Below are positions 3,675 through 64,000 of a stretch of DNA of 64,000 nt, piece by piece. Numbering within the stretch: position 1 is the stretch's first letter; every line of letters begins with the position of its first letter. Origin of the DNA: Gnetum montanum (lineage: Eukaryota > Plantae > Gnetophyta); assembly GCA_015680685.1 (NCBI GenBank), contig MNCI01002109.1, positions 66,370 to 130,369 of the forward strand, read 5' to 3'. The translations under genes and the position numbers were made by a program. The notes beneath the pieces are model-generated. The model was not told the DNA's origin. It made no database searches and was given only the letters and a program-made list of their open reading frames with translations.

Positions 3675-6012
3675 ACAAGGGGGAAGATGCAAAAGTAAAC
3701 ATCGAAGGAGTCTCAATCTCCTATTCTGTTAAGGTGATAGTTGAAGCCCTTAATGTACCTAATGAAGGGGCAAAAGTAGCACAACTTTTCACTAGATTAG
3801 ATGCAAAAACAAGAAAGTTGTGGTTGCAAAGAGCATATGACAAAGAGTACAATGATCTAACTCTTGAAGAAATAATCTACTTCAAAATTGGCACATATCA
3901 CCTATTTCCCACAAAAATATTAAATAGACTATCAACATATGTTGCTAGGATAAGTGCAATCTTAATGGGAAAACTTAAGATAAACATTACACACCTCTAT
4001 TCTCTTGAGATCCAATGATGGTTTGAACAAAAAAGGTAGGAAAGTTGATACTTCCATTCCCTTACCTCATCAAGAAGCTGTGCAAATGTGTTGGAATCCT
4101 AGGGCACACCAATGACGTCCCTAGGAAAGCTTAGAATACTTCTTATGTTGAAATGCTTAAGCCAGCAACACCAAAAAAGGACTAGATGGAAGAATAAACA
4201 CACACTAGGGAAACCACCCAAACTACTATGCAAAATTAACAAGTAAGATCCAGTGAGCAATAGCAAGAACAATAGAAGTAGCAAGTTCCACCATTACCAT
4301 CATAAGATTATAGGCCATTAATAAGTCATCTGTAACAAATTGCAGAGGCCATTAATTGGGGAATCCATGAGGAGGCTAATTTGTATAAAGTCATTGATAG
4401 TGCCATTCAACCAACAATCTCCATAGACCCTGCTAGTGGACAAATCTCATTATAGTTAGGATGAGTGAAGCAATGGTCACAATAGATTTATGAAAATGCT
4501 ACATCATTCTAAGTGGTGCTAGAAATAGGAGAAGGAGCCACGTTGTGGTTATGCAACACTAGGAGGTAGCAGGAGCTACGAAAGTGATCACAAATCATAT
4601 AAAAGAATCCTTCAATGTACTTTTTGTACTGCCAGATGATCTTTTTGAAGCTAGAGATGCTCAAATGCTAGCTGGTATCTCAATGACTCCTACTAATCAT
4701 GAAGATGTGCTAGACCAACTACTGTAGACAAGGCAAGTCATGACAAACCTTTTTGACAGCCAAATCGATGTCACTGTAGTGAAATTAGAACTCATTACAA
4801 CTAAGGGTAAATTGGTCATGGTAGAGACTAGGGAAGAGCATGCAAAAAATGAAGTTCATAGATTATAGGAAGAGCTCATAATCCTAAGGGCAGAATAGAG
4901 AGATTCTACTCAATTCATTATGCATGACTAGCTAAAGCAATTTAAAACAAAGAAAATTAATTACCTCATGGAGCATAATAAGCAAATGGAGAATGAGAAG
5001 GAGAAAGTAGTGTGGAATGCCTTAATAGAAAAATCATAGACATATGCACATGCTAAGGCACTCACCGCAATATAAGAAGAAAATAAACAACTTGCTACAA
5101 ATAATGCTAGGTTGATCAATGTAGAGAAGAAAAAGAATGTCCTTGAAGAAAGCATCCATCAATTAAGAGAACAACTGATGAAGGTCAACTAGGATATGAG
5201 CCACCTTACATGAGAAAATAAAATCCTCTCAATGGAGGAGGTACACGCCATCTGATAAAAATCAACCATTGAAATAAGTGTGTGGTAAAATAAAGCAAAG
5301 AGGCATGAAAGGCTCAAAGAGCATTTCCGTGATCAAGTGGACATATACAAATAAATTAATAAGAAGGAAATCCATATGGAAAAGGCCTAGATCAACTCCA
5401 TTTTCTCACAGAATCCAAATCGGTAGCCCATCCTAGATAGCTATGCTCATGTCCACCAATCAGAGATTAAAAACAAAGACCTGCAAATAGAATATTTATA
5501 GAATACATGGGGTTAGAAAACCTATGATATGTTAACTTGGCCATGTTAACACTAGGTAAGCCTAGAAATGAGCTAGAATAGCAAGTAGCAGCCATGTATG
5601 CATTATACGAGAAGGAATTTGCTAATCGTAAGAATGTTTTAAAGAAGCTTCAAGTGGAAAATTTTGAGCTAGAAATAGTGAAGGTTGGCTAACAAGGGTA
5701 GAAAGATGTTATAGAAAACCTAGCTAAAAGAATGTCTAATTATTAGAAGTTATGCAAGATGGCCATGACATTCAAAGAAGTGAGGAGGCAGTTTGTGGCA
5801 TGGTACATTAAGGCCAATAAGATGTTTTTGTTATTGTCATGCCCATGGGATGTACTAGCTCCATCACAGATTACACAATCAACATGGATGGTACATGATC
5901 CCAAATTGGAGTAAGAGAAACTTCAAGTGCTACTCAACAGATATAAATTTAGAAGCCTAATGACAAGGGGAAGTAACCAAAGGAGGAGCCACCACCACCT
6001 AGCACTACGTAG
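3675..6012 (+). pseudogene. Athila-type accessory ('env-like') ORF, copy 1, 5'-truncated
   Basis: Collinear protein homology with 7079-9851 and 61368-64000: YFKIGTYHLFP, L.FP.LI.KL, SFQV.L..GEG, HIKESFNV and a long coiled coil, ending in EEPPPPSTT*. Followed by a PPT and an LTR. Confidence 0.8.
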
Positions 6013-6193
6013 GCTACATAGAGCTTCATCAGCTTGTTTTGTTTTGGTTAAATTTCTTTTTTCATAACTTGTGTCAATTTTATAAACACTACTATGACAT
6101 TTAGTGTCATGTAAGTCTACCTTCCAATTTTGTAAAGGACTTTATCCTCATTTTTTAAACTCAAGGATGAGTTTCCAATTAGTTGTGGGGGTA

Positions 6194-6990
6194 TGATAAA
6201 GTCAATTTGTCTTTAGATATAATATCATATATCGAATATCACAAAATCTGTGTAGCCTATAAATAAAACACTTAGGTTCATGGGTCCACATAGTTTTTCA
6301 TCCCAAAGTAACATAACTCTTTCAATTTTTTTGCATAATCTAGTACTCAGAAGTGTGAATGCTCATAGTGTAGTGTGACTTAGTGAACGAAGTCTTTATT
6401 CGAACATCTTGTACTTGGGCACAAATGTGACTGGCAATAAAGATTGAGCTATTTCATACTATTACAACATTCTCCTAGTTTTCTATTTTACTTAGCATAA
6501 TGATTACTATTTTCCTATTTAATGTTTTACTATTCCATGCACTTTACTATTATTATTGTTATTAAGTGGAATAAGTATAATTTCTTAGTAATCCATTAGT
6601 GCTATCACTTGGTACACCTAGTAGTAGTAAACTTGATATCCCAATGGTAGTTACACAAGGTCTAAGGTGTGTACAAAAGATCAGGAATGTATGCTCATTG
6701 TCATAGGCTAGAATAGATTTTTTTAATTGTTTTACTTAGAGTTAGAAACTACTTTCATTCTCATTATGTTTGCTAGGAGTAACAATGGCCTACCAACATC
6801 AAATATCATGTACCTCACTATGAGCTAAACCATACATAGACTTCACTAACTTCATGTGGGAAGACAATGGTCTCAAACTTCAACTAATTGCTAGCATAAT
6901 TACATTGGCTCATCCATGAATTATGATCTGGTCGTGTGTGAACATTTGTGACTTGTATGGTTGGATGTTTGATTACTCCTCTGCTCATCA
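6194..6990 (+). repeat. Athila-like LTR (3' LTR of accessory-ORF copy 1)
   Basis: Preceded by CTCAAGGATGAGTTT..AGTTGTGGGGGTA (PPT). Starts TGATAAAG, TATAAAT near 6258, CTTTATT..AATAAAG hairpin near 6394-6442, ends GCTCATCA. Confidence 0.8.
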
Positions 6991-7078
6991 AGATCTAAGA
7001 TCCTGAGAGAGGATTATGAACTATTATGAACCTATTTGAAATCCTTAGGTAATCATAGATGTATTCTTTATGATAAAA

Positions 7079-9851
7079 ATGGCTATTAAGGGACCTGCAG
7101 TTGAAGGACCCTCATAACGAAGGGGTAAGCAACCCAAAGGTAGAGGATAAGCTAGAGAGTAAACTCTACAAGCTAACCAAGAGGCTCAGTCCTTTAGCAT
7201 TCATCAGTCTACACTTGCAATGGAGAAATCTACATAGGTTGAAGCTAAAGCACCACCTACTCAAGAGCAAGGACAAGGCCTCATATTGTCAAATGAGTGC
7301 CTCCAAGCTATCTAGGAAAAGTCTATCATGTCCACAGTCATTGTGGAACTCAACTTTAGACCATTCATGAAATTCACACTTGCTAATATCTAAGAGCAAC
7401 TCCAAGCCTCTCCTCTTTGGCCAATACTATCATGTAATGGTGAATGGTACCTAGGGAAAGTCTATCAATTTTGGAAGAATAAGTAAGATGATTCCATAGT
7501 CAAGATTGAGGGAATCATAGTAACCTACTTAGTTGAAGCAATTATCAAGGCACTACATCTTCCTAATATTGGAGCCAACATTGCAAAAAATATCTATAAG
7601 GTTTGACACTTATGCAAAGAAATTGTAGCTATAAAAGGCTTATGGAACAATAGATAAGGAATATAGTGAACTGTCCACAGAAGAAAATATTTACTTCAAG
7701 ATCAAGGCCTATCAAATTTTTCCCACCAAGAGACTAACTAGAATTTCCACTTATGCTACAAGAGGAAGTGTCATCCTCATGGAGAAATTCTAAGAAAATA
7801 TGACTTGTGTGCTATTTTTTAAAATCCAAAGGAGGTTTGAAGAAAAGAGGGCATGAAAACTCACTTTTCCATTCCCTTGTCTCATCAGAAGACTATGCAA
7901 GCATGCAAGAATTCAAGGCTATTCTAATGATGTTTTTTATAAAGTCAAGAATTCATTGTATACTAAGATCTCAAAGCTAGTGTCTTCCAAGAAAGATCAA
8001 CTAGAAAAGCTAGTAGGCACTAAAGGAGTTGTAGGATATACACCAGTAAGAAATGTTCCAGCTGTGGAACAAGAGCAAGTGGAACCTAGTGAGTCAACAG
8101 CAGCTGGTGATAGACTAAGATCAAGAAATGCACTAGCACAGTAGGATTATAAACCATTCATGAGCCATTTGTACAAAATGACTAAAATCATAATTTGGGG
8201 AAACAGAGAGGTCTCAAGCATGTACATAGTAAGGGACAACCCAAGTATACCTACAACATCAACAAGATGCATCAATGGTCAAGTCTTATTGCAAGAAAAA
8301 GGAGATGAGGATTGGACACAAAAAATATCTAGGAATGCTACATCATTTCAGGTTATGCTTGAAATAGGAGAAGGAGTCACAGTCAGGGTCATGCAACATT
8401 AAAATACAATAGGAGCAACTAAAGTAATTACATGTCATATTAAAGAATTCTTTAATGTTCCTATCCTACCATTGACTAATATAATTGGAGCTAGCGATGT
8501 TGAAACAATAGCCAAAATCTCCATGATCCTACAAGAGCATGAATATATCTTAGATTGATTACTGTAGACTAGATAAGTGATGCAGAACCTTTTTGATATC
8601 CCTAGTGATATCATTGTAGTATAGTTAGAACTTATTTCAACTAAGGGCAAGATAATAATGATAGAGACTAGATTTGAACATGTAGAGAATGAAGTGTAGA
8701 GGTTACAAGTAGAGTTAGCTATACTAAGAGTAGAAAAACAAGACCTTGCATGATACATTGTGTCAAACTAGCTAGAAAAATTCTAAACTAAAAAAATAAC
8801 CCAATTGGTGGCCAAAAATATTTAAGTTGAGATGAAAAAAGAAAAGTCAACATTAAATGCCTCAACGGCTAAAGCCCAAACATATGCTTATGTCAAAGTC
8901 CTAACTACCATAGAAGGGAAGAACAAAAAGATTGTCATGGAAAATATGAGGTTGATGAATATTGAGAAACAAAAGAATGTTCTAGAAGAAAACATCCATT
9001 AACTAAGAGAGTAGTTTGCTAAAGTTAACCTCGACATGTGAAAAATAGTTAGAGAAAATAGAGTCTTATTAATGGAAGAGGTTCATGCAATCTAACAAAA
9101 GTTAGCCATCGAAATTAGTGCATGGAAAAATGAGGCCAAGAAGCATGAAAGGCTAAAAGTGCACTTCAAAGATCAAGTGGGCATGTACAAGAAGATAAAT
9201 AAGAAAGAAATCTAGGTGGCCAAAGCTAAAATCAACTCCATCACAACACAAATACCTAATTGGCAGTCAATCCTAGATGGTCTTGTCCACATACATTAAG
9301 CAAAAATTAAGAATAAATACCTACAAATAGAGGATATAACTTCATACATGGGATGAGCAATCCTTTAGTATGCTAATCTAGCCATGATTATAGTAGGCAA
9401 GCTTGAAAATGAACTAGACTAGCAAGTGGCCTCAGTATATGCACTATATGAAAAGGAGTTTGTAGACAGGAAGGATGCACAACAAAAGCTACATACTGCA
9501 AACTTCAAGCTCCAAGTGATCAAGGCTAGCTATGAGAATCTAATGGACATAGCAACAAATCTAGCTTGTAGGATGATAGACTATTAAGAATTGAGGAAGA
9601 TAGCTAGAGCATTTAAGGAAGAAAGAAGGCAGTCCATAGCCCAGTACATCAAAGTGAACAAAATGTTTCTACAATTGCAATGTTCATGGGAAGTACTAAT
9701 TCCAGCAAGTATTGCTGAATTTGCTTGGATGGCATTTGATTCAAGATCAGAGGAAGCAAAAATTTGGGTGTTACTTAACATATACCAATTTCAAAAGCCC
9801 AATGACAAAGGAAAGAGATAGATGAAGGAGCCATCATCACCTGGAACATGA
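7079..9851 (+). pseudogene. Athila-type accessory ('env-like') ORF, copy 2, about 920 codons with stops and frameshifts
   Basis: ATG at 7079 (MAIKGPAVEG...), ends KEPSSPGT* at 9851. Homologous along its length to copies 1 and 3. PPT at about 10050-10083. Confidence 0.8.
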
Positions 9852-11240
9852 GGCTACATCGAGATTTGAAGTTTTATTTTTCTTTTTGCCTTGTCATATG
9901 CGTTGATCATGCAATGCATGATAATTTTGTAAACATCACTCAAACCACAATGCAACATTCATAGTAGAGTCAATAATGTATATAAGTCATGATGTCAAAT
10001 TATGTAAACAACCACATAATTTTGTAACTCTATCCTCCTTTTGTTTTAACTCAAGGAAGAGTTTCTAGTTAGTTGTGGAGGTATGATAAAAACAATAGTG
10101 TTAATAACTACAATATCATAGCCTTGCTTACATCATCATATATGTGATGTAGTGGGTCCTAGTCTCCATTATAAATACCAACCTATTGTTTTATCAAACA
10201 AAGAATCTTTCATAAACATTTAGGCCAATTATTGTAGTTTTTTTTCATGATTTAGACTTGGCAATAGAGTGAATGCTAGCATGTGATGTGAAATAGTTGT
10301 ACCGAATCTTTATTCAAGTGGATTATTCTTAGGCATAATTCATGATCAGAAATAAAGATCAAGATTTTTTTCCACCATTGCAACATTCTACTTAGCTCAA
10401 TTTTACTTCACTTTTACTTAGTTTAAGTTTACCTATTGATGGGATGTGATATAGCATGGGTCGCAATATCACGTATGCGATATTGCGTCTTCCCCTGCAA
10501 TATCGCATACACGATATTGCAATGCACCATCATATCTATAAATAAGAGGCAACTCTCCCTTGTTTCATCATCCTAGGCTAGACAGTAGGGAACCTCTGGC
10601 AGATTGATCACTCCAGAGATAGAATATTTTCCATGTGCCTGCAGTAAGAGTCCTAAAGTGAACAGATCTTTATTCAAGCAAACATTGTACCTGAACACAA
10701 GTTTGTGTGCGGCAATAAAGAGGAGCTTCTTGGATAAACCTTGTAGTACATGGAATAGGCTAATTAGGATTTTCTTTATTGTTATTTAATTATTTTATTA
10801 TCTCTCGCAACCCTTCTCTCCTAGTTAAGTGCCTCAGTACAACCACTTCGAGCACATGCGTTACGCTTGGTGATCCTAGCAATGATTAGCGTTTGGTAGC
10901 CAAGGTTGCATCGGTTCAAGATGTGTACGGTAAGTGGGAATGGATGCTGATGCTAGGTTAATTTAGACTTAGTTCATTAGTTAGAGTTAGTAATTAGTTT
11001 CTCTACCCTTCACCTTATTAGCATAGGAGACAAAAACATAAAAACTATAAAAATGATATACCTCAGACTTGCTTAACCATACACCGTGACAACTACAAGT
11101 AAGTCTGGGAAAACAACAAATGATTAACCCTAAGTGTTCCACGAGGCATGTAGGCATTTAGTCTATGGAGTTCGACCGGATCGTGTGTGCTACGCTCATA
11201 TTCATATGGTTGAGTGTAGGGGTATCTTGCCACTCAACAT

Positions 11241-11258
11241 TGGCGTCGTTGCCGGGGA
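11241..11258 (+). promoter_or_regulatory. Primer binding site, tRNA-Asp type (Athila)
   Basis: TGGCGTCGTTGCCGGGGA 1 nt after the LTR end. Matches the Athila PBS TGGCGCCGTTGCCGGGGA with one mismatch. Confidence 0.85.
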
Positions 11259-11316
11259 CTAAGTGTTTGTGAGTCAAGTAGAACATAGGATATCACTCAC
11301 ATCGTTGGGAGCCTAA

Positions 11317-14300
11317 ATGAACCTTCAGGTTAATTAACAGAAAAATTTATATAACGGTGAGATAGCACACTGATAAATAACAATTTCTTCTTCTAACAAA
11401 AGCAACTCACCACCTAGGGATAATACAAGAAACAGTCAGTAATCAAAAACACATAACCAAAATCAACCAAGTCCTCAACAATACCAAATAGTCTATACTC
11501 ATCCCGATGAGTATATTCCATACTTTACCTTTATCCTCCATCAAGACGAATAGCTGTGATGGAGAGATTTGCAAGGTAACATTGTGTTACCCTCAAATCG
11601 ATCAGTTCCAAACATGCTTCTTCGTGCTTTGGCACAGATAGGCATGATAGAATTATATGCTGAATATGTTGTAGAAGAATTTGACATGAGGGATTATCAT
11701 CCCACAGAAGCACAACGTATCAGGGACTCATAGCAGGAGAGCCAACATACACTGTTGAAGGGTAAAGGTCTGCACGTCCTTGGTGAAATAGGAGATGGTG
11801 AACCCATTATAACGGGTTCTCTATCAAATGATGTTTCCCCTCCTAATGATCGTGAGGAGGTGGGGTATCAGAACTTAAGCTCAACGATACATAACACTGG
11901 TTCTGATCCCCGTGAACACCAACTATTCACAGAGGGAACAACAACTCATGATAAGGATGGGCACTTAGATCATCATCATGATCAGGGCCATAGCAGCCGA
12001 AGAGAAGGTAAGAAGCACCATCATGGCGATGGTTCCCCTTCTTCTTCTCCTTCATCTCATCACTCACCCTCTCCTTCCAGATCTGGGCACAGCCATCATG
12101 AACATAACGGTGAGGATACAGGTAGAAAAAATGAGAGACCTCAATAGGAAAGTCGAGAGAGAGGACAAGGGCATGCATGAAGGGAAAGTAGGAAGCAACG
12201 AAGACATCACAGGCATCATGAAAGAAATAATCATGACGAGCCCCTACTCGCAACCTGAAGTATGCTCGATATCACAGAGGTAGTAAGAATTCCAACAAGG
12301 CATCAAAAGGATAGTCAAATCAAATGCTTAGACATTAACAATATTCCATGCTTTGAGGGGGAATATAACTCAGATCCACAACATCATTTACAAGCATTCC
12401 ATGATGCCTGTGCCTTGCAGAACATAGAAAATGAGTGGCAAAAACTTAAGTTGTTTCCCAGGACACTCACCAAAGAAGTAGAGAGTTGGTACTGGTCCTT
12501 AGAACCAGAAACCATCAAGAGGTGGAGTACGATGTTAGAACTCTTCAATGATAAGTATCAAACATACTCCAGAGTGTCTAATTTGCGTAAGCAGATCCAA
12601 ATATGAAAGCAAGGTACTTATGAACCCTTGGATGTTGCCATGGGCCGCTACTACGCATTGTTACATCATTGCCCAGGCCATGGATATGCTCAACGGGACC
12701 AACTTTTCCACATCGTAGATGGGCTCAGACATGAAACTAGGAGAATCCTTGGGACTTATGCCCAAGTGAAACTATCAGAACTTAGAGCCCATGAAGTACA
12801 TCGCTTGTTGGAGCAAGTAGCAAAAGAAGAAGGTGAGCTACGCAAAAGGGAAAGTGCGGAAGAATACAATTGTGATCCCTCCCTTCAGAAGAAGGGAGTA
12901 AGATTTTGTGATGAGGAGGATGATTCATCACTCGAAGAGTTGGTGAACCAAAAAACCTTGCCAATTCAAAAACTAACAATAGAAGTATCGGCTAAGGTAG
13001 ACCAACTATGGGATTCCTTAGACTCTAGACTTAAAACAGTCTTGAAAATCGTAGAAGAGTCTAAGGTGGAACGAAGTAGTGACAAAGGTAAGACAAAGTG
13101 GAGATATTTAGGCCCTACACATAACAAGGGTAAGCGGTAAATTACTATCTCTGATGAAGTTGTGGACTCAAACACAGACGATGACGGTGGATGTGAGATC
13201 TTCCAATATGATCATCCTAAGGGATGTTGTCCAATCATCTCACATCTACAGGAGTCTGGGGTGTATGCACTTAATCCAAGACTTAACCAATGGAAGACAC
13301 CCCAAAGGTTACCCTATCCACAAGGTAACCCAAGGTAGTTCCACCAATCCTTAACATACTATCCAAGTGGAACTCCACCACAACCCATCGAACAGAATCA
13401 ATAGTGGCAATACCCACAGTCATGGGGGATGCCACCGTTGGCACAACAGTACCCTTACTGGCAGCCAGACCCATATGGATATTATGTGCAGCAGCTGGTT
13501 TCTCCAAGTGACTCTATGGGTCACACAACTCCCCAATGTCACTACCAAGTTCGAGAGTACTTTAGGAGGACCCCTTCTCCTTCAGGAGACATTCCACATT
13601 CATCCCATCCTCCAAATCCATCTGCACCTCTTCCACCTATAGTTCCCATACCTCCTACTTCAACAATGCAAGGGGAACTCCCTACTCAACCACAGCAACG
13701 AAACGCTACGAGAGCAGTAAACATTCAACCCACTACTAGTTCTGACAACTGTAAAAAGAGAAGATCTTTCTTTAGAACCAGAAGCCTAGACAAGCTCTCA
13801 TAACAAGTGGTTGAGTCCACAAACACTCCTCCACCAAACAAAACTTCGAAGCACCCTTCAGTCCAACAACAAAGCTGTAGGCATATGGTTATGTTAACGT
13901 ATACCATAACCAACTGGATCAAGGTAGGCCACCTTCCCAGGAAACTATCTGACCCTAGGAGTCCCCTAATTTATTTAAAAATCACCAGGAACAAACATCA
14001 TAAGGCTCTTCTTGACTCAAGTTCCGGAGTCAACTTAATTTCACAAGAAATGTATCAAGCCTGGAACCTTCCCTAACTTAAGAAGAGCAACATTCAACTA
14101 GAGCTAGTTGACCAGTCCATCACCATTCCCTTGGGATTGGTGGAGGACATAGTTACCACTGTGTGTGGTTGGTCATACCTAGTCGATTTCTTGGTGATTG
14201 AAGTTAACAACAACGAAGGGGACTTTCCAATCATAATGGGAGGGCCATGGCTAAGTATAGTAGATGTGTACCTAGGGATCCATGATCTTTCCTTGTAGAT

Positions 14301-14715
14301 ATCTAAGATAAACATATATGGAAAGATCAAGAAGAAGAGATTTTTATGCATCACATACGGTGACTCAGAGGGTGATGACATGGAAGAATGTTCAGCATCT
14401 CTTCCATGTAATCAGTGTGCCCAGGAAATACAAATTCAAAGGTGCCTGTATGTAGCAACCACACCAGTAGTAGACACCCCGTGGTTGATAGCTACTAGGA
14501 AGAGCAAACCAATATGCACTGAACGAATTGAGGAAACTCATGCTAACAATGAAGGCATAGATACATTGGAATATGAGCATCGCCAACTTCCACCCCTTAA
14601 CCTAAAAACATCAATCAGGAGAAGTTGGGCACTGTTACAAAATTCAAAAAAGCGCTCATTATTATGGATCTCTCCCTTTCCATTTAGTCATGGGGGAGAT
14701 GGCCACCTATGCTGA
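11317..14715 (+). pseudogene. gag: Gag-aspartic protease polyprotein, 1133 codons in one frame, interrupted only by in-frame stops
   Basis: ORF-track pieces at 11755, 12262, 12628, 13429, 13807 and 14380 are all in frame with ATG 11317. Gag core IPCFEG..DPQHHL..F..LKLFPRTL...WYWSL; protease ALLDSSSGVNLI...DFLVIE..FPIIMGGPWL. Confidence 0.88.
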
Positions 14716-14739
14716 TCATTGGAGGTCCTCAGTTCTTTT

Positions 14740-14925
14740 TAGTTTTTATTTTACACATTTTTGTTTTACATGTTTTTGTTTTACACATTTTTGTTTTACA
14801 AGTTTTTGTTTTACACGTTTTTGTCTTACACATTTTTGTCTTACATGTTTTTGTTTTATAGTTTTTTGTTTTACACGTTTTTTTTTTTACAAATTTCTTT
14901 AACTTTTCTTGTTTTTGTTTTACAA
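14740..14925 (+). repeat. T-rich minisatellite, about 15-bp unit TTTTTGTTTTACACA, just after the Gag-PR stop
   Basis: Roughly ten visible tandem units. A shorter array sits at the same position in element B (~52190-52265). Confidence 0.85.
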
Positions 14926-17614: not shown

Positions 17615-18295
17615 AAGGCACATGATATTTTTTTATATTTATTATATTTTATTTATTTAATCTAAGTATGAAATAAAGATAATTAATGGAAATTTAACTA
17701 TTTAACCATCTAATGATCCTTAATCTAACTAGCCTAACATAAGCATCTAGGCCTACTTTTCATTCACATCCTAGACTCATCTTAACACTACTAGGTTACC
17801 AAGGATCTATCATTGGGTAGACCAAATAGCCACTGCTGGGATTACCAAGCATTAAACAGTATGTTCGAAGTCATTGTACTTATGTGTTGTTATTAAGTGC
17901 ATTAATTAACTAAATACATGAATGCAAATTACATGAATAATAAAGTGCATAGAAATAAACATTAATCTATTTTAAGTGTTATAAAGAGTTCGAAGAATCA
18001 TGTCTTTATTGTCATCACATCAAAGTGTCCAAGTATAATGATGCTTGAATACAGATTCATACAATTTTTAAAGTCCTACTGCAAGCACTTAGAAAATATT
18101 CTAACTCTAAGCCAAGAAAACTGCAAGACCTCAACTATGCTATTGACTTAATGTGCCATAAATATGATGCATACACACATTTATATAGGCATGACATGGT
18201 ACTACGTCGATGCATCTACATCGATGCATCAAACCATGCGTTGACAAGGCTATGTCGATGATGTCCATCAATGTAGCCAGTCAAATGATTTATCA
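17615..18295 (-). repeat. Truncated Athila-like LTR, minus strand
   Basis: Reverse complement starts TGATAAATC at 18295. TATA near 18180-18188, poly(A) hairpin near 18003-18056, GGGATTACCAAG motifs. Last ~180 bp missing. Confidence 0.7.
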
Positions 18296-18448
18296 CTTAG
18301 ACTTAGACTTCATTTTAATTTTCATTAAGTTGACATTTAGGACAATTAAAGTCTAACATCAATGTATCATATGCCTCATCAAGAGTTAAACAATACAACT
18401 TGAACTTCATTAACTTAACATGAGAAGAGAACAATCACAAATTGAATC
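18274..18448. repeat. ~175-bp direct repeat, copy 1 (copy 2 at 28551-28728), flanking the endogenous virus
   Basis: Near-identical by eye, with scattered substitutions and one 3-bp indel. Confidence 0.92.
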
Positions 18449-18687
18449 TCTAAAATCTGCAACACTTTCTTCAAATCATCATGGAATTCTCGTAGCATCC
18501 TAAAACCCATGGTGCACTTAGATGAAAAATACAATGAATATGTAGAAGCAACACAATAGAAACTTGGCAAGTTGCCTTGCACAACGATCGTTTTCTCAAC
18601 TCACACCTCACACTCTCACTCTTTCTTCATGATGCGTTAAATAGAAGAGAAAGACAGAATCAAAGGATAAACCTTCTTAACCAATCC

Positions 18688-19067
18688 TTTATTGCATCAA
18701 CTTCTACACAGACATAGCTTCTAGCTGGTACATTGTAGATCTCAAGACAACAACAAGACCTATTTAAACAAACTGCTAAAAGATCAAGCAGATTCACATA
18801 GCAAGGACTCTAACCATCATCCAAATAGCAAGAATCAAGAAGATGACTAAAGAAATCACACCAGCAATATAAACTTTATCAGGCATAATCAGACTTCTAA
18901 TTCTGACTCAAACTCTAATTATAACTCATCCAAGAGATTAAGCTCCAACCAGTGAAGGACTTCGTAACAAATTAAGACTACTAGGTTGAGGAGTAGACAA
19001 CCCTAATGCATGATTTGGTAATGCCTCTTACTTGCCCTTTACAAGAGGGGATACATGGGTATATATA
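18688..19067 (-). promoter_or_regulatory. Putative 35S-like pregenomic promoter TATA (19060-19067) and downstream AATAAA (18688-18693)
   Basis: Minus strand reads CCTATATATACCC after the last viral ORF, then AATAAA about 370 nt later. This is the usual caulimovirid intergenic order. Confidence 0.45.
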
Positions 19068-28545: not shown

Positions 28546-28550
28546 AGAAT

Positions 28551-36250: not shown

Positions 36251-36283
<33 letters not shown>

Positions 36284-51800: not shown

Positions 51801-52163
51801 ACATACAGTGATTCATCAGGTGATGACATGGAGGGATGTTCATCTCCTCCATGTGGTAGGTGTGCCGTTGAAACTGTGCAACAAAGATGCCTGTATGTAG
51901 CAACCACACAAGAAGTAGTAGACACCCAGTGGTTGACAACTACTAGAAAGAGCAACCAAGTATGCATGGAATGAACTGAGGAAAACCATGCCAACAACGA
52001 AGGCATAGACACATTGAAATATGAGTATCGCCAACTTCCACCCATTAATTTAAGATCATCAATTGGGAGAAGTTGGGCACTTCTTAGAAATTCCAACAGG
52101 CACTCATCATTTCGGATCTCTCCCTTACAACTCAGTCATGGGGGAGATGGTCAACTATGCTAA
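48816..52163 (+). pseudogene. gag: Gag-protease polyprotein of element B (assembly gap 50842-51585)
   Basis: Homologous to 11317-14715, with the same start (MNL.VN) and the same end (HGGDG.LC*). Confidence 0.85.
50842..51585. other. Assembly gap (Ns)
   Basis: Run of N. Confidence 0.98.
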
Positions 52164-55100
52164 TCATATGGGGCCCTCAGTTCTTTTAATTTTTTTGTTT
52201 TACATGCTTTTGTTTTACACGTTTTTGTTTTACAACATTTTTTTTTACACATTTTTGTTTTACAAATTTCTTTAACTTTTTCAATTTTTGTTTTACAAAG
52301 TTATTTAAATTTTCTAAGTTTTTGTTTTTCAAATTTCTTTAATTTTTCTAGTTTTTGTTTTACATCATCATTATACTCTTCCACTTTGTGTGTGTGTGTG
52401 TGTGTGTGATCCACCCTGTAAGTTTGTCCCATAATAAGTGTTCGGAATGATGGTATGAACTATTTTCATATTGATTGCTAATGTTTGATTTTTACCTTTA
52501 AGTTACAATGTTGAGGCTAAGGTATGTTTCTTTTGATATGGCAGGCTTGATTACGAGCATCTAAGGATGTGTACAGCTAGTTAAGGAATTAGTTGCTCGT
52601 CGCATGCGGTATGAGTACGACTTGATTACGAGCATTGTGACTACTTGGTAACCCAGTGGAGTATTCCAGGATCTACACTTGGTAATCCCAGTGGTAGTCC
52701 CAGTGTGTATGGTTAGTCAAGGAATCGGCTGCTCATCGCACNGTTTAGGGTGTGTATGGTAAGTGGGAATGGATGCTGACACTAGTTAATTTAGACTTAG
52801 GTCCTTAGTTAGAGTTAGTTAGTTCTCTCAACCTTTCACCTCATAGCATAGGAGAAAAACCATAAAAGACCATAAAAATCATATACCTCAGACTTACTTA
52901 ACCATACACCATGACAACAACAAGTAAGTCTAGGAAGACAACAAATGATTAACCCAAAGTGTTCCATGGGGCGTTTAGGCATTTAGTCTACGGAGTTTGA
53001 CTGGATCGCGCGTGCTACGCTCGTTTTGTATGGTTGAGTGTAGGGGTACCTCGGCACTCATCAATAGGCAAGTTGTAGGGTATATTTGCCATTACATGGA
53101 TGAAAATGTTTATCATCTTGTCTCCATAGAAAAATTTGCCAAAAGTCTATGGGATAAGTTAGAGGAGATGTATGCTAGAAATACGAAAGGAAATAAAATG
53201 TACTTGATAACAAAATTGATGAATACCTAGTACAAAGAAGTTACTCCCATATCTAACCACCTCAATGAGATGCAGGGCATTATGAATCAACTTGTATATT
53301 TGAAGATCAACTTTGATGAAGAATTATAGGGTCTAATAATTTTTGGTTCCTTGCCATGAAGTTGGAAGATACTCAAAATATCGATAACAAACTCATCCCT
53401 AAATGGAGTTGTATCATTCAACTAAATCTAGAGCAATCTCTTGAATGAAGAAATAAGGAGAAAGAAATTGGGCTTCACAAGTTCCTTTTTTGAGGCATTG
53501 GTTATAGAAAACTAGGGGAGGAGCCAAAGTAAAGATCCACAAAAGTGTGAAAATGATAGAAGCAAGTCCAAATCCAAAAAGAAGATTGAGTGTTATCACT
53601 GTGGCAAGAAGGAACATATAAATAGGAATTGCAAAAAGTTGAAGTGAGAGCAATAGTAGCAACATCAACCAAATGAGAATGGTGGAGATCAGGCTTCAGT
53701 TGTCAATCAGGAGGCTTACATTCTCAAAGACATGAGTGACACTGATATTGTCAATTTGGCAACCCAAGAAACGAATGGGTAATTGATAGTGGTGCTTCTA
53801 TTCATGTGACATCCAAAAGAGACTTCTTCTCATCCTACACTCAAGGATACTATGGTGAAGTAAAGATGGGAAATGATTATTCAAGCAAAGCGATTGGAAT
53901 TGGAAATGTTTGTTTGAGGACAAATATTGGTTGTAGACTAATATTGAGAAATGTCAAACATGTTCCAAATATTAGAGTAAACTTAGTATCTATGATGAAA
54001 CTGGATAATGAAGGCTATGAGAACAACTTCAAAGAAGGACATTGGAAACTCTCCTTGGTGGTAGCTAGAGGAAAGAAGTAGCATTATTTGTACATGATGC
54101 AAGCATATGTCATCAGAGACACCATTAATGTGGTGGAGGATGAAGTGACAATGGAGTTATGGCATAAAAGGCTTGGCCACATTAGCCGAAAGGGGCTAGA
54201 TATCCTAGCCAAGAAGAATATACTTTCGAAGTTGAAAGGAATACATTTGAAGAGCTGTGTAGATTGTTTAGCTGGAAAGTGGCATAGAGTTACCTTCAAG
54301 AGCTCACTTTGACATAGAAGTAAGCATGTTTTAGATTTTGTACATTTTGATATTTGTCATCCTATGCCAATAAGATCACTTGGTGGGGCATACTACTTTG
54401 TCATATTTATTGATGATCACTCTAGAAAGGTGTGGTTATACACCTTAACAAAAAAAGACTAGGTGGTAGATGTGTTCAAGAAATTCCATTCAAGTGTAGA
54501 AAGAGAGACTAGCAAGATGTTGAAGTGTATCAAAATAGACAATAGAGGTGAATACTTGGGAGAATTCTTTGAGTATTGCAAGAGTCATGGTATTCAACAC
54601 CAGAAGACTCCTCTAAAGACTCCTTAGCTACATGGTCTAGTTGAAAGGATGAATTGGACTATTGTAAAAAAGTCTAGGAGCATGTTATCACTTGCAATGT
54701 TACCCAAAACCTTTTGGGAAGAAGTGGTGAAGATAGCTTCTAATTTGATCAATATTTCTCCCTTAGTTACTCTGTATGGAGATATTCCAGAGAGAGTATG
54801 GCATAATAAAGATGTCTCCTATGATCATCTAAAAGTGTTCAGTTGTAGAGCATTTGTGCACATCTTAGAGGATGAGAGATCCAAGCTGGATGGAAAAACA
54901 AGGGAATGCATCTTTCTGGGATATGGCAATGATGAGTTTGGCTATAGACTATTTGATCCTATTACAAAGAAAATAGTCAAAAGCCAGGATATTGTATTCT
55001 TTGAAGATTAGTTTATCAGAGACATTAACAAGGAGATCTAGAAACTAGAGCAAAGTGATAAGGTGAATCATGATCCTGTCCTTCCATCTAAATCATAGAA

Positions 55101-57561: not shown

Positions 57562-60354
57562 TGATGAGCGGCGAGGTACCCCTACACTCAACCATACGAA
57601 TACGAGCGTTTCACGCACGATCTGGTCGAATTCCAAGGACTACGTGCTTATGCGCCCTTGTGGAACAAGGACGGGTTGGTTGATCGTTGTCTTCCCAAGC
57701 TTACCTATATGTCATGATTGTATGGTTAAGTAAGCTTGAGGCATATGATTTTTATAGATTTTATGTTTTTATGTCCTACGCTAGTAGGGAAGGAGAGAGG
57801 TAACTAAGTGACTAATTTAACTTAACTACTCATTAACTAAGTTCTAACTAATCCTAACACTAACATCTATTTCCACTTGCCATACACATTCTAAACCATT
57901 GCAACACTACTGGGATTACCAAATGCTAATCGTTATTGGGTTACCAAGTATTACATGCATGCTCGAAGTGGTCGTGCTTGTGTAATTTAACGATTTGCTC
58001 AATTGATCAAAATGAATTGCTGTGCTAATAATAAAATGTAAAGTGCATAAAATAAAATAAATGCATAAGAAAATAAAATAAAAGAAATGTGTAAGAAAAC
58101 AAATATCAAGTGTTGCAAGGATGAATCAAAGAGCTTGGCTTTATTGTTGTACACAAGGTTTGCTTAGGTACATAATGCTTGAATAAAGATCCATCCACAC
58201 TTAGACCTCCTGCTTCAGGCACTTGGAAAATACTCTAACTTTTCAAATAGACTACAAGAGTTTCACTACTTGATTGCTAAAAGAATTCCATTCCAATTGT
58301 GCACCTGGGCATTGTATTTATAGGCTTAGGAGCAACTATTCTAATAATTAGAGTAACCGCTCTAATAATTAGAATAACTACTAAAGTAACCACTAGAGTA
58401 ACCTCTCTAATAATTAGAATAACTGCTAGAGTAACCGCTAGAGTAACCACTCTAATAATTAGAATAACTGCTAGAGTAACCACTAGAGTAACCACTCTAA
58501 TAATTAGAGTAACTGCTCTCATCATACCCCCATGACTGAATAAAAACTCGTCCTTGAGAATAGAAGAAAAGAAACAAGTTCTTTACAAAATATTAGGAAG
58601 GTATGGGATTATTGACTAACTGACAACTAACGGTGGAATGGGATGACAGACTCAATGTGCCTAGTGAATAGATCAATAAGAATATTACAACATTAGTGTT
58701 CATAACCATTGTGGTAAACACTCGTACATAAATGACATCCAAACCTTTATTTGGCAGCTTGTAGAGAAAGAGAGAGAAAGAAAATGAAGCATGTTGCTGC
58801 CAATGCTAAAATTGCACTTCCGTTGTTTATCCATAGCCACGCCACCAAACTTGCTCCTTTTGTAAATGCTTTAGTTCTGGTCCATCCTGAGTGCTTACTC
58901 CAAGACCAATCCATTGTTTGTATGATTGGAATCTACACACACAACACAGTCACAAATGAGCAAGGATAGATAAACCACAATGCAGTTGATACCTTGCCTC
59001 AATATGAAGTGCATTGGATAAGTTGTGATTATGGCAGAAACTGGTTTAGAGATTTATCATAGGTGACTACCCAAGGTGTAGGGGTTAGGTAAATAGTAAA
59101 ATGGAGAATATTGAAAAATTTATGCTAAAGCCCCCACGACTAAGAGTGAACCTTTGGTAGCTATAAGATGGAAAAATATGAGGAACAAGAAAGATGGAAA
59201 AAAATAACAACAGCAATGCTAATAAAATGGATGTCATGGATGGGGATGAAACAAGAGATGATTGATTGCAGAAAATGTTTAAGGAAAAGAACTTGATAAT
59301 TGCACCAAAAAGGAATGCTAGTGGGTCCTCCCCAAAGTAGGCTCATGCCTTTTATGCCCTAACAACAAACCAAAGAGTCCGTAGGCTCTAGGAATGTCAT
59401 TCGGAAGCAAGAGTTAAAAACTTATCCACAAGAATTCACTAAAAAAAAGAATGCATCAACCTAGAATGGACTAATGATAAAATCGACAATGAGGTGGAAA
59501 ATGGGAAGAAAGATGGAGAGGAGAGAATGGAATGGAATCCCAAGAACAAGGTTGTGTAAAGCCCCTTGTGTATTTCATGGTTAAGATAACTGAGTAGAAC
59601 TCATCCTAAATCCAGACTCAAACCAACCACATTCAGTGACCTCACATCAATACACTTGGCCAATTCATCCTCTTGAGGCAACAAGAATGCTTCCACAAAG
59701 AGGACCATCATCCCGAGAAGAGCAAGATGAAGATGTAGAAAGTGAGAAAGGGTCTTAGTTAGAGGGAACCTTCAGGCATGGGAAACATGTCTTTTTAGTT
59801 TCATAACTAGAGCTTGTAGCCCATATTACTTTATTATGTCTAAGGGGTGTGCTTTGAATTCTCACTTTTCTCCTTTTTTTTTACGTGAGAACCAGACCAT
59901 GCAAAGACTTATTTTTATTCACTTGGCTTCTTGATTTTTGAACAATGTGAGAATGGCAGAAAAGCCAAGAAAAAAGAATCCAAGCACCCAAGAGAATGAC
60001 CAGCAAAAATGCATCGAATCCCCTTGAAGTCATACCCTTTTCATCCTTTAAGTATTTTCTTGGTTTGAAAAGTACCCAGCCACCAATTCATTAATAAATT
60101 TACTTAGAAAAAGGGGATTGTATAGTTCCAAGCCAAAGGAGACCATAGAGTTGTATGGATGAGTGGACGACGTGGACTCATTGCTTGTTTTACCAAAAGA
60201 ACCATACCTTAATATCAACATCTTAATTCAAAGGTAAAAACCAAACATTAGCAATCAATATGATATAATGCAATCCACCATCATGAGTACTTATTGGATG
60301 ACAAATAAAAGTAAATCAAGCAAACAAAGAAATAGTAAAAAAATTAACAATGGT
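57562..60354 (-). mobile_element. Element C: 3' part of a third element related to A/B (3' LTR 57562-58524, PPT, ~1.8 kb region homologous to 15000-16686)
   Basis: The LTR ends with the family terminus. PPT reverse complement CTCAAGGACGAGTTTTTATTCAGTCATGGGGGTA. Collinear homology to the 3' region of A. Interrupted by element D. Confidence 0.85.
58335..58520. repeat. Minisatellite of 21-bp (CTCTAATAATTAGAATAACTG) and 12-bp (CTAGAGTAACCA) units in U3 of LTR C
   Basis: Directly visible. Explains the repetitive ORFs at 58277-58535. Confidence 0.9.
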
Positions 60355-63300
60355 TGATGAGTGGCAAGGTACCCCTACACTCAACCATATGAATATGAGC
60401 ATTTTCACGTGCAATTCAGTCGAACTCTGCAGACGAACTAGTTGTGGCACCTAGACAGTTATCCTTAGGTCGCAGTTTGCTATCTTCCCACTTGGACTAG
60501 TATTAGCTTTGTCATGTATGGTTTAGTCCAGAGTGAGGTGTATGATTTATTCTAATCTAATGTTACTCTTGAAGGCAGTGGAAAATAATATTAACTAAGT
60601 TAAGCTAGGAGGGAAAGGGTAAGAGAATCTAATCTAGCCTAAGTGCAATGAGCATCTGTTCCTTGATTATCCATACACATCTTGGACTTTGTGCATGACT
60701 ACCACTGGGATTACCAAGCGTGGATTCTATGTATGCTACTGGGTTACCAAGTAGTCACACTTAAATGCTCGTAATCAAGCCATAATCATTCCGCGTTTCT
60801 AGGAGATAAGGGTGAGAGAGATTAACTAAGAAAGTAGTAAATAACAAACAAACAAATAAATAAATAACAAAGTGAATTCTGCAATGATGAAGTAATCTTG
60901 ATCTTTATTTCCGATCATGTGTATGTCCAAGTACGTCACACTTGAATAAAGGATGCCGTACAATTACATTCACCACACTTCGGGCATACACGGGAAAAAT
61001 AATCTATCTCTGGAGGGATCAAACTACCAGGGCTTCACTACTGTCTAAACTAAGTTGTGAAATGAGGGACAGCTACCTCTTATTTATAGAACTAGCGACG
61101 GGCTGCGATATACATGATATCATAGGGAAAGATGCAATATCTTGTACGTGATATCGCAGCCCATGCAATATCACGGCAGATGCGATATTGCGTCCTATCA
61201 TACCCCCACAACTGAATAAAAACTTGTCCTTGAGTTACAGTGATTACATAGTGGATAGGTATGGAATTATTAGATGGAAAAAGAAATGGGATGATGCCAC
61301 AGTGTGGGAAGAAAACAAAATAAAGACACAACACACAGAATATGCTATAACTACAAAAATTTGAAACTCATGTAGTTCCTGGTGGCGATGGCTCCTCCAT
61401 TAGTGCCTTCCCTTTGTCTTGTGCTCCAGGTTTTGACATTTGATGATGCTGAAGTATGGCTTGGAGCTTCTCCTCTTTAGTCCAAGGGTCTTGTGTCATC
61501 CATGCTAATGTTCTAATGTTTGACAGAGTCAGCACTTTCCACAGGTAGGGTAGTTGCAGGAACATCTGGTTGGCCTTGACATACCAAGCTGCGAACATTC
61601 ATTGTTCCTCCTCATAGGCTCTAGCTTTGTTCTTGTATTCGTGAAGGTCTGTTAGCCATCAAGCCAAGTCAGTTGCAACATCTTTCTATCCCTGGTAGCT
61701 GGCTTTTACCACCTCAAGTTCAGAATTTGCAACATCCAGTTTCTCTACCAGCTTCTTGCGCTCTGCAAATTCTTCTTTGTATTTGATGTGGGTGGAAGCT
61801 ACCTGCTGCTCGAGCTCTGTTCTCGGGCACCCTAATATTAACATAGCAAGGTTGGCATATCTAAGGTTTTCCAACTCCATGTACTCTGTCAAGTCTTGAA
61901 TCTGCAAGTCTTGGTTCTTAATTTCCGCTTGGCGAGCAAAGGCATATGTGTCCAATACGGCCCACCAGTCAGTGTGGTCGGCATTGATAACGTTGATCTG
62001 GGCCTTGGCCATATGGATTTCCTTCTCTAGGATTTTTTTGTACATCCACACATGATCCTAGAAGTGCTCCTTCAGCTTCTCATGTCATTTAGCCTTATTC
62101 TGCCATGCGCTTATCTCAATCATTGATTTTTTACGAATGGTGCATACCTCCTCCATCGAGAGGGTTCAATTTTCTTTGGCTAAATGGCTCACATCTCGGT
62201 TGACCTAGATGAATTGTTCTCGTAATTGATGAAAGTGTTCATCGAGAACATTCTTTTGCTTTTCTACAGTAGTCAACCGAAGATTGTCTACAACCAACTT
62301 CTTGTTTTCTTCTTGTAAGGCCTTGAGTGCCTTAAGATGCACATGGGTTTGTGCCTGTGATGCAGAGGAATCCCAAATAGCCTTCTCTTTTTCTTCATCC
62401 ACCTTTTTATTCTCTACGATTAATTTGGTTAGCTATTTGGTTCTAAATTTTTTAGCTGGTTTGCGGGAACAAATTGCAAAGGGTCTCGCTATGCTGCTTG
62501 TAAGGCCACGAGTTGCTCTTATAGTTTCTGCATTTCAACTTCAGCATGCTCGACCCTTACCTCTATTAAGAACAGCTTCCCCATTGTGGAAATGAGGTCT
62601 GATTGAATTGTCATAACATCCTGAGGGATGTCAAACAGGGACGTCATTACTTGTCCTATTTGAAGCAATCGATCAAGTGTATCCTCATGTTCCGCATGAG
62701 TCATTGAGGTTCCGGCTAAGGTTTGAGCATTCCGTGCTCCTGTGAGATCTGCTGGTGGCACAACAGGTACATTGAAAGATTCTTTGATGTGATCAGTGAC
62801 CACTTTTACAGCTCTCGTGGAATTTTGGTGTTGCATGACCATCACAGTGGCCCCTTCACTAGTCTTTAACTGCACCTGGAAAGATGTTGCATTTCCTGAG
62901 ATCTGTTGTGACAATAGGCTTTTCCCTCCTCCTATTTGAATGGATACTTCTCCCCTTGTGCGATCTAAAAAAATCGTAGGCTGAATGGCATCATCGATGA
63001 TGCGGAAGAGATTTGCATCATCACGACTTCCCCAACTGACCATCTCAGCGATGGCCCTAAGATGGCTTATCAACGATCTGTAGTCTTGCAGTAGCAGTGG
63101 CTGATCCTGGACTATGCTAGGCCCTGCTTCTTGTTGTTGGTTGAAACCCATGGCTGGAGGTTGACTGGGTCCAGCCATATGTTCTTCTTCTTGTTCTAGT
63201 CCTAGCTCTTCACCAATGCTTTTTCTTGGAGCTGGTGCCTTTAGTAATTCTGCATATGAAGCAATCTGGGCTTTTTGGAGGACGTCATTGGTGTATTCCC

Positions 63301-64000
63301 GAATACCAGCACGTCGGAAAAGCTTTCTGATAAGACAAGGAAAATGCAATGCCATTTTCCCCGTCTTTCATTCCTCAAACTGCCTCAGGATCTCTATCAA
63401 ATATAGATGGGGTAGGTCAACGTTAACCTTTCCCATCAACACTGTACATCCTCTAGCCGCATATGTCGATATTCTTTTTAAGCCCTTTATGGGGAAGAGG
63501 TGATAAGTTCCAATTTTGAAGTAAACCCTCTCTTCCGTCGTCAATTCACCAAATGGTTTATCTCTGCCATAAGCCTTCTCCAACCAATCCTTTCGCATGT
63601 TGGGGTCTGAACGAGTGGATAACCAAGAAACCTGGGGCCTTGTATTTAGAAGGTTTAGCACTTCCAAAATGTCTTGTGCAGAGAAGTCAACTGTCACACC
63701 ACAAATATTAACAGTGGTGCCTTGCTCCCTATTGTGCCAAAATTGGTACGTCTCTCCTAGGTACCAGGCATCGCTTTCAGAGAGGATAGGCCATAATGGG
63801 GATCCTTTGAGGTGATCCCTAAGGACTTCAGGAGAGAAATCTACCAATGATTCAAATTTTAACTCCACAATCACCACAGAGAATGTGGACTTCTCATGGA
63901 TGGCCTGAATGCAATCTTGGGGCAACGTGAGTTATTATCCTGGTTCAGACGCTGCAGCAGCTCCTCCTTCTGCCTGCCTGGACCGTCTGATAGGAGGTTC
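60355..64000 (-). mobile_element. Element D: Athila-like element carrying the accessory ORF, nested in element C and continuing beyond the window
   Basis: 3' LTR 60355-61200 with termini nearly identical to those of A/B. PPT at ~61201-61235. ORF upstream. Confidence 0.88.
61368..64000 (-). pseudogene. Accessory ('env-like') ORF, copy 3 (best preserved)
   Basis: ORF pieces starting at 63925, 63355, 62402, 62051 and 61598 join with one frameshift. N-domain VNICGVTVDFSAQDILEVLNL...LHFPCLIRKLFRRAGI resembles Athila/Tat accessory proteins. C-terminal ~350 aa is heptad-rich. Confidence 0.85.

What the first reader, a model, noticed from the sequence alone, without database searches (positions are those of the whole stretch)
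3675..64000. Possible divided (multipartite) Athila-like retrotransposon system: one LTR/PPT chassis, separate cargos, no pol
Seen: elements A and B carry only Gag-PR plus a non-coding tail, and C shares that tail. Three other copies place a ~900-codon accessory ORF directly before the PPT. Both types share the PPT block CTCAAGGAYGAGTTT..AGTYRTGGGGGTA and the hairpin. LTR D (accessory type) also shares with A/B the start TGAT..GACGCAATATCGC, the TATA context CTATAAATAAGAGG and the terminus GTATGGTTGAGTGTAGGGGTACCTTGCCACTCATCA. No Athila RT, RNase H or integrase appears in 64 kb despite six copies. Established: canonical Athila carries gag-pol and the env-like ORF in one unit, and pol-less TR-GAG elements exist. 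Inference: functions may be split over co-evolving LTR units that complement in trans, like a segmented virus.
Basis: partly seen in the sequence, partly recalled or inferred. Interest (0 to 1): 0.85.

Follow-up and report, generated by a model that had tools for sequence, protein, structure and literature searches.

The report
Pol-less Athila retrotransposons in nested cluster
Two plant retrotransposon copies here lack their copying enzymes and likely borrow them from relatives, a well-known arrangement, while the three 'accessory-gene-only' copies are cut off on their front side and are likely ordinary longer elements rather than segments of a divided virus-like system.

Summary
The anatomy is mostly real; the 'divided system' is not shown. 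A (10437-17173, TSD CCTAT) and B (47740-53063, TSD ATAGG) are LTR-bounded elements with an Athila-type PBS, a Gag-protease ORF and no pol. Their gag evolved under purifying selection (dN/dS 0.27), and the family is extremely abundant in sequencing runs. They are therefore a real non-autonomous family, not dead deletions. That type is the commonest Athila form in Brassicaceae (934 of 2,322 elements).

The other four copies cannot show whether they have pol. D is cut by the window end, C by D, E by a nested element, and F begins right after E's LTR. Only 1.8-3.1 kb is visible before each 3' LTR. 'No pol in six copies' thus rests on two copies of one family.

The 'one chassis' is overstated: D's LTR is 59-63% like A/B, E and F about 44-55%; only D shares the termini. 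The accessory ORF is PF20167-like, a domain reported in a full-domain sunflower Athila. Most likely this is an ordinary helper/parasite Athila pair. Accessory-ORF-only units are not excluded (about 8%). No host genome was available to settle it.

The parts
10437..11239 (+). Element A 5' LTR (TG...CA), inserted in F's 3' LTR; TSD CCTAT at 10432-10436 and 17174-17178
11241..11258 (+). Element A PBS, Athila type (tRNA-Asp/Asn), one mismatch to the published 13-mer
11401..14712 (+). Element A Gag-protease frame, 1,104 codons, 14 stops, no frameshift; PF03732 at residues 350-444; protease called from motifs only (no Pfam or PDB hit)
14681..14697 (+). Internal copy of the PPT at the end of the A ORF (also at 52134 in B)
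14713..16686 (+). Element A tail ending in the PPT block; no codon periodicity, many 1-2 bp indels against C; unrelated to the accessory ORF except the last ~100 bp
16687..17173 (+). Element A 3' LTR with an internal deletion; K2P distance to the 5' LTR 0.087
47740..53063 (+). Element B: 5' LTR 47740-48736, PBS 48738, Gag-PR 48897-52160 with N gap 50842-51584, tail cut at 52545, partial 3' LTR; TSD ATAGG; inserted in a copia element; LTR distance 0.07
57562..60354 (-). Element C: tail, PPT and 3' LTR (58524-57562) only; 5' part cut off by D
60355..61200 (-). Element D 3' LTR; shares start, TATA context and last 46 bp with A/B
61370..64000 (-). Element D accessory ORF, cut by the window end; PF20167-like N-terminal domain (E 4e-10, 40.2 bits, below the 45-bit cut-off); charged, partly heptad-like C-terminal half; one frameshift near 62450
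3643..6990 (+). Element E: accessory ORF (5' end interrupted at 3642 by another element), PPT, 3' LTR 6194-6990; no PBS follows
6991..10436 (+). Element F: 88 bp leader, accessory ORF 7079-9869, PPT, first part of the 3' LTR (10084-10436)
17179..28834 (+). Rest of F's 3' LTR in pieces (17179-17428, 18301-18448, about 28578-28834), split by solo LTR G and a caulimovirid-like insert
17429..18295 (-).

Best explanation
A and B are pol-less Gag-protease LTR retrotransposons of a very abundant family that likely borrows reverse transcriptase and integrase from autonomous Athila-lineage relatives, and D, E and F are the 3' ends of longer elements that likely carry gag-pol ahead of their accessory ORF, outside the window.

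Shown: LTRs, TSDs, PBS, PPT, Gag-PR without pol, purifying selection on gag, nesting and truncation.

Inferred mechanism: A/B-type RNA is transcribed from the 5' LTR and makes its own Gag and protease. It is co-packaged with a helper's Pol, primed at the shared tRNA PBS and PPT, and integrated through the conserved LTR ends. Selection or template switching keeps these ends matched to the contemporary helper lineage. D is the best candidate for that lineage; E and F are an older branch. The accessory protein is predicted to be a soluble, non-envelope regulator (no transmembrane segment), not a separately encoded segment.
For: - Visible 5' extents of C, D, E and F are 1.8-3.1 kb and each ends at a nested insertion or the window edge.
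- A has no room for pol (internal region 5,447 bp). B's N gap (743 bp) matches the collinear A stretch (about 790 bp).
- dN/dS A vs B: gag 0.27 (CI 0.21-0.36), protease half 0.26 (0.11-0.61); D vs F accessory ORF about 0.14 with saturated dS.
- Summed contig depth in run X1: 0.47-1.05 million over gag, 0.87 million over the protease end and 0.46-0.83 million over the tail, against 1.3-1.8 thousand over the neighbouring copia. Run X6 is alike. Gag, protease and tail are amplified together.
- E-type LTR ends are followed by PBS-like letters in 115, 94 and 116 contigs of three runs, so the accessory type uses the same primer.
- Precedents: 7 of 11 Arabidopsis Athila families lack pol and keep ORFs under purifying selection (PMC2410132). 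Gag-protease-only is 934 of 2,322 ATHILA (bioRxiv 10.64898/2026.03.20.713144). A sunflower Athila not listed among those with domain losses carries a PF20167 3' ORF (PMC11728184). An extra internal PPT is known in Athila4 and Calypso (PMC2829016).
Against: - No pol linked to the accessory ORF was seen anywhere. No host genome was held.
- No 607-1,932 aa relative of A's Gag was found among 1,080 candidates.
- Metagenome scans were empty.
- Athila membership cannot be tested by RT phylogeny, and the PBS lies 1 nt from the LTR rather than 3-6 nt as in Brassicaceae.
- D's LTR is only 59-63% like A/B overall, so D need not be the helper.
- The depth sums are not copy numbers, and the tool left part of the joints and loose ends uncounted.
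- The dN/dS signal could partly predate the loss of pol.
Confidence: 0.6

Rival explanations
1. The accessory-ORF elements are themselves non-autonomous (Gag-PR plus accessory ORF, no pol), and a rarer third lineage supplies Pol to both types, as in Arabidopsis gag+env families.
For: Gag+env pol-less families II, IIIa, IVc, Va and VI exist in Arabidopsis (PMC2410132). Only 19% of Brassicaceae ATHILA carry all five domains. Nothing here links the ORF to pol.
Against: No direct evidence either way. The accessory ORF is 4-6 times less deep than Gag-PR/tail in the laid runs, which fits a minority helper but does not require one.
Confidence: 0.25
2. One reading: functions are divided over separate LTR units (Gag-PR only, accessory ORF only, pol elsewhere) that complement one another like a segmented virus.
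For: D shares the first 330 bp of its LTR with A/B at 67-70% against 46-56% with the other LTRs, and the last 46 bp at 83-96% with A5, A3, B5 and C. Both cargos show purifying selection. A/B lack the accessory ORF altogether. Mutually complementing defective pararetroviruses with homogenised non-coding regions are described (PMC5491270).
Against: No complete accessory-ORF element is in the window. No PBS precedes any accessory ORF (2 PBS-like sites in 64 kb, both before gag). No listed joint links an LTR end to the ORF leader (15 of 137 joints shown, contigs short). E and F do not share the termini (52-63%). LTR trees do not resolve by cargo (supports 33/0 and 55/41 on the 3' part, open forks on the 5' part). 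Shared ends are also what an ordinary helper/parasite pair predicts.
Confidence: 0.08
3. A and B are independent dead deletion derivatives of a full-length element and never spread in this form.
For: Both are decayed (13 stops in 1,074 codons; 10 in 556). The post-protease 121 codons are near neutral (dN/dS 0.61, CI 0.37-1.02).
Against: A and B are 16% apart yet share the same protease-to-tail junction, each with its own TSD. C shares the tail at 72%. Gag, protease and tail are equally and hugely deep, and no loose-end cluster after the protease is among those listed (24 of about 17,700 shown).
Confidence: 0.05

Closest known systems
Non-autonomous Athila families of Arabidopsis (Marco and Marin 2008, PMC2410132; parts 1-3 of 6 read)
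   Same: Whole families without pol, with gag only or gag plus env, ORFs under purifying selection (omega 0.19-0.38), LTRs only partly alignable between families, mobilised in trans.
   Different: Here the host is a plant lineage poorly represented in protein databases. The copies are older (LTR distance 0.07-0.09). The gag-type copies carry no trace of the accessory ORF.
Gag-protease-only ATHILA of Brassicaceae (ATHILAfinder, bioRxiv 10.64898/2026.03.20.713144; passages and one section read, supplements closed)
   Same: Same domain content and same PBS 13-mer (1-2 mismatches); commonest form of the lineage.
   Different: LTR ends in CATCA/CAACA with a 1-nt spacer instead of TATCA with 3-6 nt. 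The elements are shorter (A 6.7 kb against a mean of 8.8 kb).
TR-GAG / GAG-PROT non-autonomous elements (PMC13570524, passages; the original Coffea paper not read)
   Same: LTRs, PBS, PPT, Gag and protease, no RT/RH/INT; helper often not traceable.
   Different: A long tail between two PPT copies and Athila-type priming.
Sunflower Athila 14 with a PF20167 3' accessory ORF (PMC11728184; passages and section 2.2 read)
   Same: Sense accessory ORF with a Transposase_32-like domain before the 3' LTR.
   Different: 487 aa there against about 900 codons with a long charged C-terminal half here. Its pol is seen there and unseen here.
Complementing non-autonomous grass pararetroviruses ePVCVL/ePVCVL2 (PMC5491270; abstract and one section read)
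   Different: There both partners were seen whole and share 97-99% identity in the shared region; here the second partner is never seen whole and LTR identity is about 60%.

Membership tests
Athila clade (Ty3/gypsy, OTA) | RT/RH/INT phylogeny inside the Athila clade, no archaeal RNase H | not testable with these tools
   No pol of this lineage in the window or in the searches
Athila clade (Ty3/gypsy, OTA) | PBS for tRNA-Asp/Asn, TGGCGCCGTTGCC | tested here: met
   A has 1 and B has 2 mismatches to the 13-mer; PBS-like loose ends follow E-type LTR ends
Athila clade (Ty3/gypsy, OTA) | TG...CA LTRs with 5-bp TSD | tested here: met
   A CCTAT, B ATAGG, G CTTAG; not checkable for C, D, E, F
Athila clade (Ty3/gypsy, OTA) | TATCA terminus and 3-6 nt AT-rich spacer before the PBS (Brassicaceae pattern) | tested here: inconclusive
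   CATCA/CAACA and a 1-nt spacer; the pattern is published for Brassicaceae only
Athila clade (Ty3/gypsy, OTA) | Sense accessory ORF before the 3' LTR related to PF03078/PF20167 | tested here: inconclusive
   PF20167 E 4.3e-10 but 40.2 bits, under the 45-bit cut-off, in D; E 6e-4 in F. What lies upstream is unseen.
Athila clade (Ty3/gypsy, OTA) | Extra internal PPT | tested here: met
   16 of 16 bp match between 14681-14696 and the terminal PPT; also at 52134; known for Athila4/Calypso
Envelope-like protein | Transmembrane helix | tested here: not met
   Highest 19-residue hydropathy 1.14 and 0.68 in D's two frames, 1.52 in F; the usual threshold of about 1.6 is recalled
TR-GAG / Gag-protease non-autonomous element | Paired LTRs, PBS, PPT, Gag (and protease), no RT/RH/INT | tested here: met
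   Element A complete; B the same apart from its gap and 3' deletion; protease called from recalled motifs only (searches gave no hit)
TR-GAG / Gag-protease non-autonomous element | Amplified as a family, coding region under selection | tested here: met
   Two TSD-bounded copies, shared junction, dN/dS 0.27, very high depth
Multipartite (segmented) system | A complete TSD-bounded unit that carries only the accessory ORF | not testable with these tools
   All three copies are cut on the 5' side; no genome held; one search gave no supporting joint
Multipartite (segmented) system | Near-identical shared LTR across cargo classes | tested here: not met
   D vs A/B 59-63%, E and F vs A/B 44-55%; only the ends match, and only for D

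The most novel reading that the evidence does not exclude
D-type elements are LTR units that carry only a ~900-codon accessory gene, with no gag and no pol. They co-evolve their LTR ends with a Gag-protease-only family while a hidden third lineage supplies Pol: a three-part retrotransposon. The paper searches here found no description of an accessory-ORF-only LTR family, but the library lacks most subscription papers.
Probability: 0.08. Interest if true: 0.75.

Novelty: new member of a known kind. Interest (0 to 1): 0.2.

Why it matters
As it stands, it extends the Gag-protease-only Athila type to a plant lineage with almost no relatives in protein databases (2 hits for the accessory ORF among 1.84 billion representatives; 5 for Gag), where it is one of the dominant repeats. 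It also adds a long, conserved accessory protein of unknown function. That is useful for repeat annotation and for the open question of what Athila's extra ORF does. If accessory-only units existed, they would prove that the accessory protein is useful in trans and would give LTR retrotransposons a segmented life cycle.

Tried and rejected
- Host genome: none held, so the genome-wide census could not be run.
- Metagenome scans with the accessory ORF (67 pattern matches, none confirmed) and with the LTR terminus (0 matches) found nothing.
- No long Gag-Pol relative of A's Gag: 0 of 1,080 candidates of 607-1,932 aa.
- A host exon search to place the plant lineage found nothing (0 of 6 candidates).
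- The AlphaFold2 model of the accessory ORF had mean pLDDT 35; no fold search was run on it. The protein has no language-model look-alike result.
- An antisense or sense ORF in the tail was rejected: no codon periodicity, many frameshifting indels.
- The tail as a relic of the accessory ORF was rejected.
- The RT/RH at 25.8-19.8 kb as the missing Athila pol was rejected: opposite strand, nested in F's LTR, best PDB match 8r0s at 136 bits against Ty3 RT at 95 (that 8r0s is a caulimovirus enzyme is recalled). No integrase match follows it.
- E's LTR as F's 5' LTR was rejected: no PBS, 61-67% identity.
- No listed holder of the stretch is on record as RNA. RNA reads laid from two same-species runs were mostly under 90% alike, so they say nothing about these copies.
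- A hand count of codon positions among the differences listed was uninformative (10/6/6 of 22 inside the known ORF).
- Heptad periodicity was significant in 1 of 4 segments tested (p 0.04), so 'coiled coil' stays weak.
- Earlier scan findings: none returned.

Full report
1. The observation. Self-comparison and reading of the window give a nested cluster of seven related LTR elements. A (10437-17173, TSD CCTAT) and B (47740-53063, TSD ATAGG) are bounded on both sides. C, D, E and F show only a 3' LTR and 1.8-3.1 kb before it. D's ORF runs off the window at 64000. D sits in C's tail. E's ORF is interrupted at 3642 by another element on the minus strand. E's LTR ends 88 bp before F's start codon with no PBS after it (only 2 PBS-like sites in the window, both before gag). 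That E inserted into F is inferred; its TSD cannot be checked. F's 3' LTR is split by A, G and a caulimovirid-like insert.

2. No pol. The window's own RT, RNase H and copia integrase, used as probes on all six frames, found no further Ty3-type pol (motif scan). The RT/RH at 25.8-19.8 kb (PF00078, PF17917) matches PDB 8r0s better than Ty3 RT (136 against 95 bits) and is not the missing Athila pol. So the statement is true, but it bears on only two copies, A and B, which are one family (84%). B has a 743-N gap whose size fits the collinear stretch of A, and it has lost the PPT and most of its tail.

3. A and B. A reads as one frame of 1,104 codons with 14 stops and PF03732 (E 1e-5; B 1e-8). The protease is called from recalled motifs; Pfam and PDB gave no hit. 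The ORF ends on an internal copy of the PPT, followed by a 2-kb tail without coding signal. An extra PPT is known in Athila4 and Calypso (PMC2829016, passages). Between A and B, mismatches fall 71/67/133 on codon positions over 569 codons, dN/dS 0.27 (CI 0.21-0.36). The protease half gives 0.26 and the last 121 codons 0.61 (CI reaches 1.02). LTR pairs differ by 0.087 (A) and about 0.07 (B).

4. Abundance. Contigs of two DNA runs laid at 80% likeness cover gag, protease end and tail alike, at 0.46-1.05 million summed depth in X1, against 1.3-1.8 thousand on the neighbouring copia and 0.11-0.19 million on D's accessory ORF. The tool warns that these sums are not copy numbers and that not all joints were counted. 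The contrast is still some 500-fold. The pol-less form is an amplified family.

5. The accessory ORF. D, E and F are 63-70% alike in DNA. D vs F gives 152/116/220 mismatches by codon position, dN/dS about 0.14 with saturated dS. The N-terminal part matches PF20167 below its cut-off. There is no transmembrane segment, so 'env-like' is a label of position only. It has 2 short unnamed relatives among 1.84 billion representatives. The fold model was unusable. A sunflower Athila that is not listed among elements with domain losses carries a PF20167 3' ORF with a predicted nuclear signal (PMC11728184).

6. What precedes the accessory ORF. The second lay (6700-7700) showed PBS-like loose ends behind the E-type LTR end in 115, 94 and 116 contigs of three runs (agreement 0.44-0.52, as expected from a mix of PBS and flanks). 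The accessory type therefore primes like A/B. None of the 15 joints shown (of 137) links the LTR end to the ORF leader. The 70 bp before F's start codon are covered more deeply (1,500-3,200) than the first 200 bp of the ORF (110-1,800), so a conserved element lies there; what it is was not resolved. Contigs in repeats are short, so this test is weak in both directions.

7. One chassis? Whole-LTR identity is 84% for A/B, 59-63% for D against A/B and 44-55% for E or F against A/B. D does share the first 330 bp (67-70%) and last 46 bp (83-96% with A5, A3, B5, C; 76% with B3), while E and F do not. Trees do not resolve the LTRs by cargo (all 9 and 7 rows used). The start hairpin beats shuffles in 3 of 7 LTRs (A, D, G).

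8. Mechanism. Shown: structure, selection, abundance, truncation. Inferred: A/B-type RNA supplies Gag and protease and is copied and integrated by Pol from an autonomous relative that recognises the same PBS, PPT and LTR ends. D's lineage is the best candidate helper. Whether D carries pol (0.6), only gag (0.25) or neither (0.08) cannot be read from this window.

9. Known systems. Marco and Marin (PMC2410132; parts 1-3 of 6 read) report that 7 of 11 Arabidopsis Athila families lack pol, as gag or gag+env, under purifying selection and possibly acting in trans; they describe no env-only class in the parts read. ATHILAfinder (passages, section 6; supplements closed, and its Table S2 of domain combinations may bear on accessory-only elements) counts 934 gag-protease-only and 440 complete among 2,322, with the ATHILA ORF in 673. 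Sugar beet has 28 GAG/PROT-only families (PMC13570524, passages). REXdb notes that extra ORFs are heterogeneous and clades are defined by pol (PMC6317226, passages). Passages were also read in PMC1142308 (tRNA-Asp PBS), PMC7264820, PMC11963269, PMC2633040 and PMC6894440 (the soybean LTR-swapping paper appears there only as a reference). Mutual complementation of defective partners is published for pararetroviruses (PMC5491270). Searches for a bipartite or accessory-only LTR retrotransposon returned no such paper.

10. Verdict. A new, abundant family of a known kind: it works like Gag-protease-only non-autonomous Athila and meets the non-coding membership features, while the defining RT test is not possible. 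The divided-system reading arises mainly from counting four 5'-truncated copies as pol-less. Interest 0.2; the accessory-only reading keeps about 8% and would deserve 0.75.

Noticed in passing
window 18449-28550 (- strand): Caulimovirid-like insert with protease-, RT- and RNase H-like remains, decayed and itself rearranged; flanked by a 175-bp direct repeat (18274-18448 and 28551-28728, 93%) that duplicates the junction of solo LTR G and F's LTR.
   Followed up: partly
window 20309-20657 and 23823-24172; 22890-23005 and 24221-24336: Two repeated blocks (92% and 95%) lie between the RT and RNase H parts of the caulimovirid-like insert, suggesting a further insertion or rearrangement.
   Followed up: no
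window 1-3642 (- strand): Another decayed element that begins TGTTAAC at 3642 and interrupts E's ORF; gag-like text by eye, no Pfam hit at E 0.01.
   Followed up: partly
window about 30100-32941 (+): Host gene with short exons that looks like a small G-patch protein (label by eye, recalled); its last exon found no relative.
   Followed up: partly
window about 46773-57477 (+) and 34942-40510 (-): Two copia elements; the first hosts B (LTR distance 0.14; rve, RVT_2 hits), the second has a 1.2-kb internal duplication (34942-36156 and 39274-40510, 86%).
   Followed up: partly
window 7006-7073: The 70 bp before F's start codon are more widely shared among relatives than the ORF's own first 200 bp: a regulatory motif or the end of an upstream ORF.
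   Followed up: partly
window 62876-64000: In RNA run X21 first mates lie mostly on the + strand (53-65 against 8-11), which would mean sense transcripts of accessory-ORF relatives if the library is of the usual stranded type; 75 of 85 molecules begin at 63375. Most reads are under 90% alike.
   Followed up: no
window 58330-58525 (- strand): C's LTR starts with an array of short, partly palindromic repeats in place of the repeat motif that starts A, B and D.
   Followed up: no
window about 45900-46500 (+): Decayed LINE-like coding text (by eye) just before the copia LTR.
   Followed up: no
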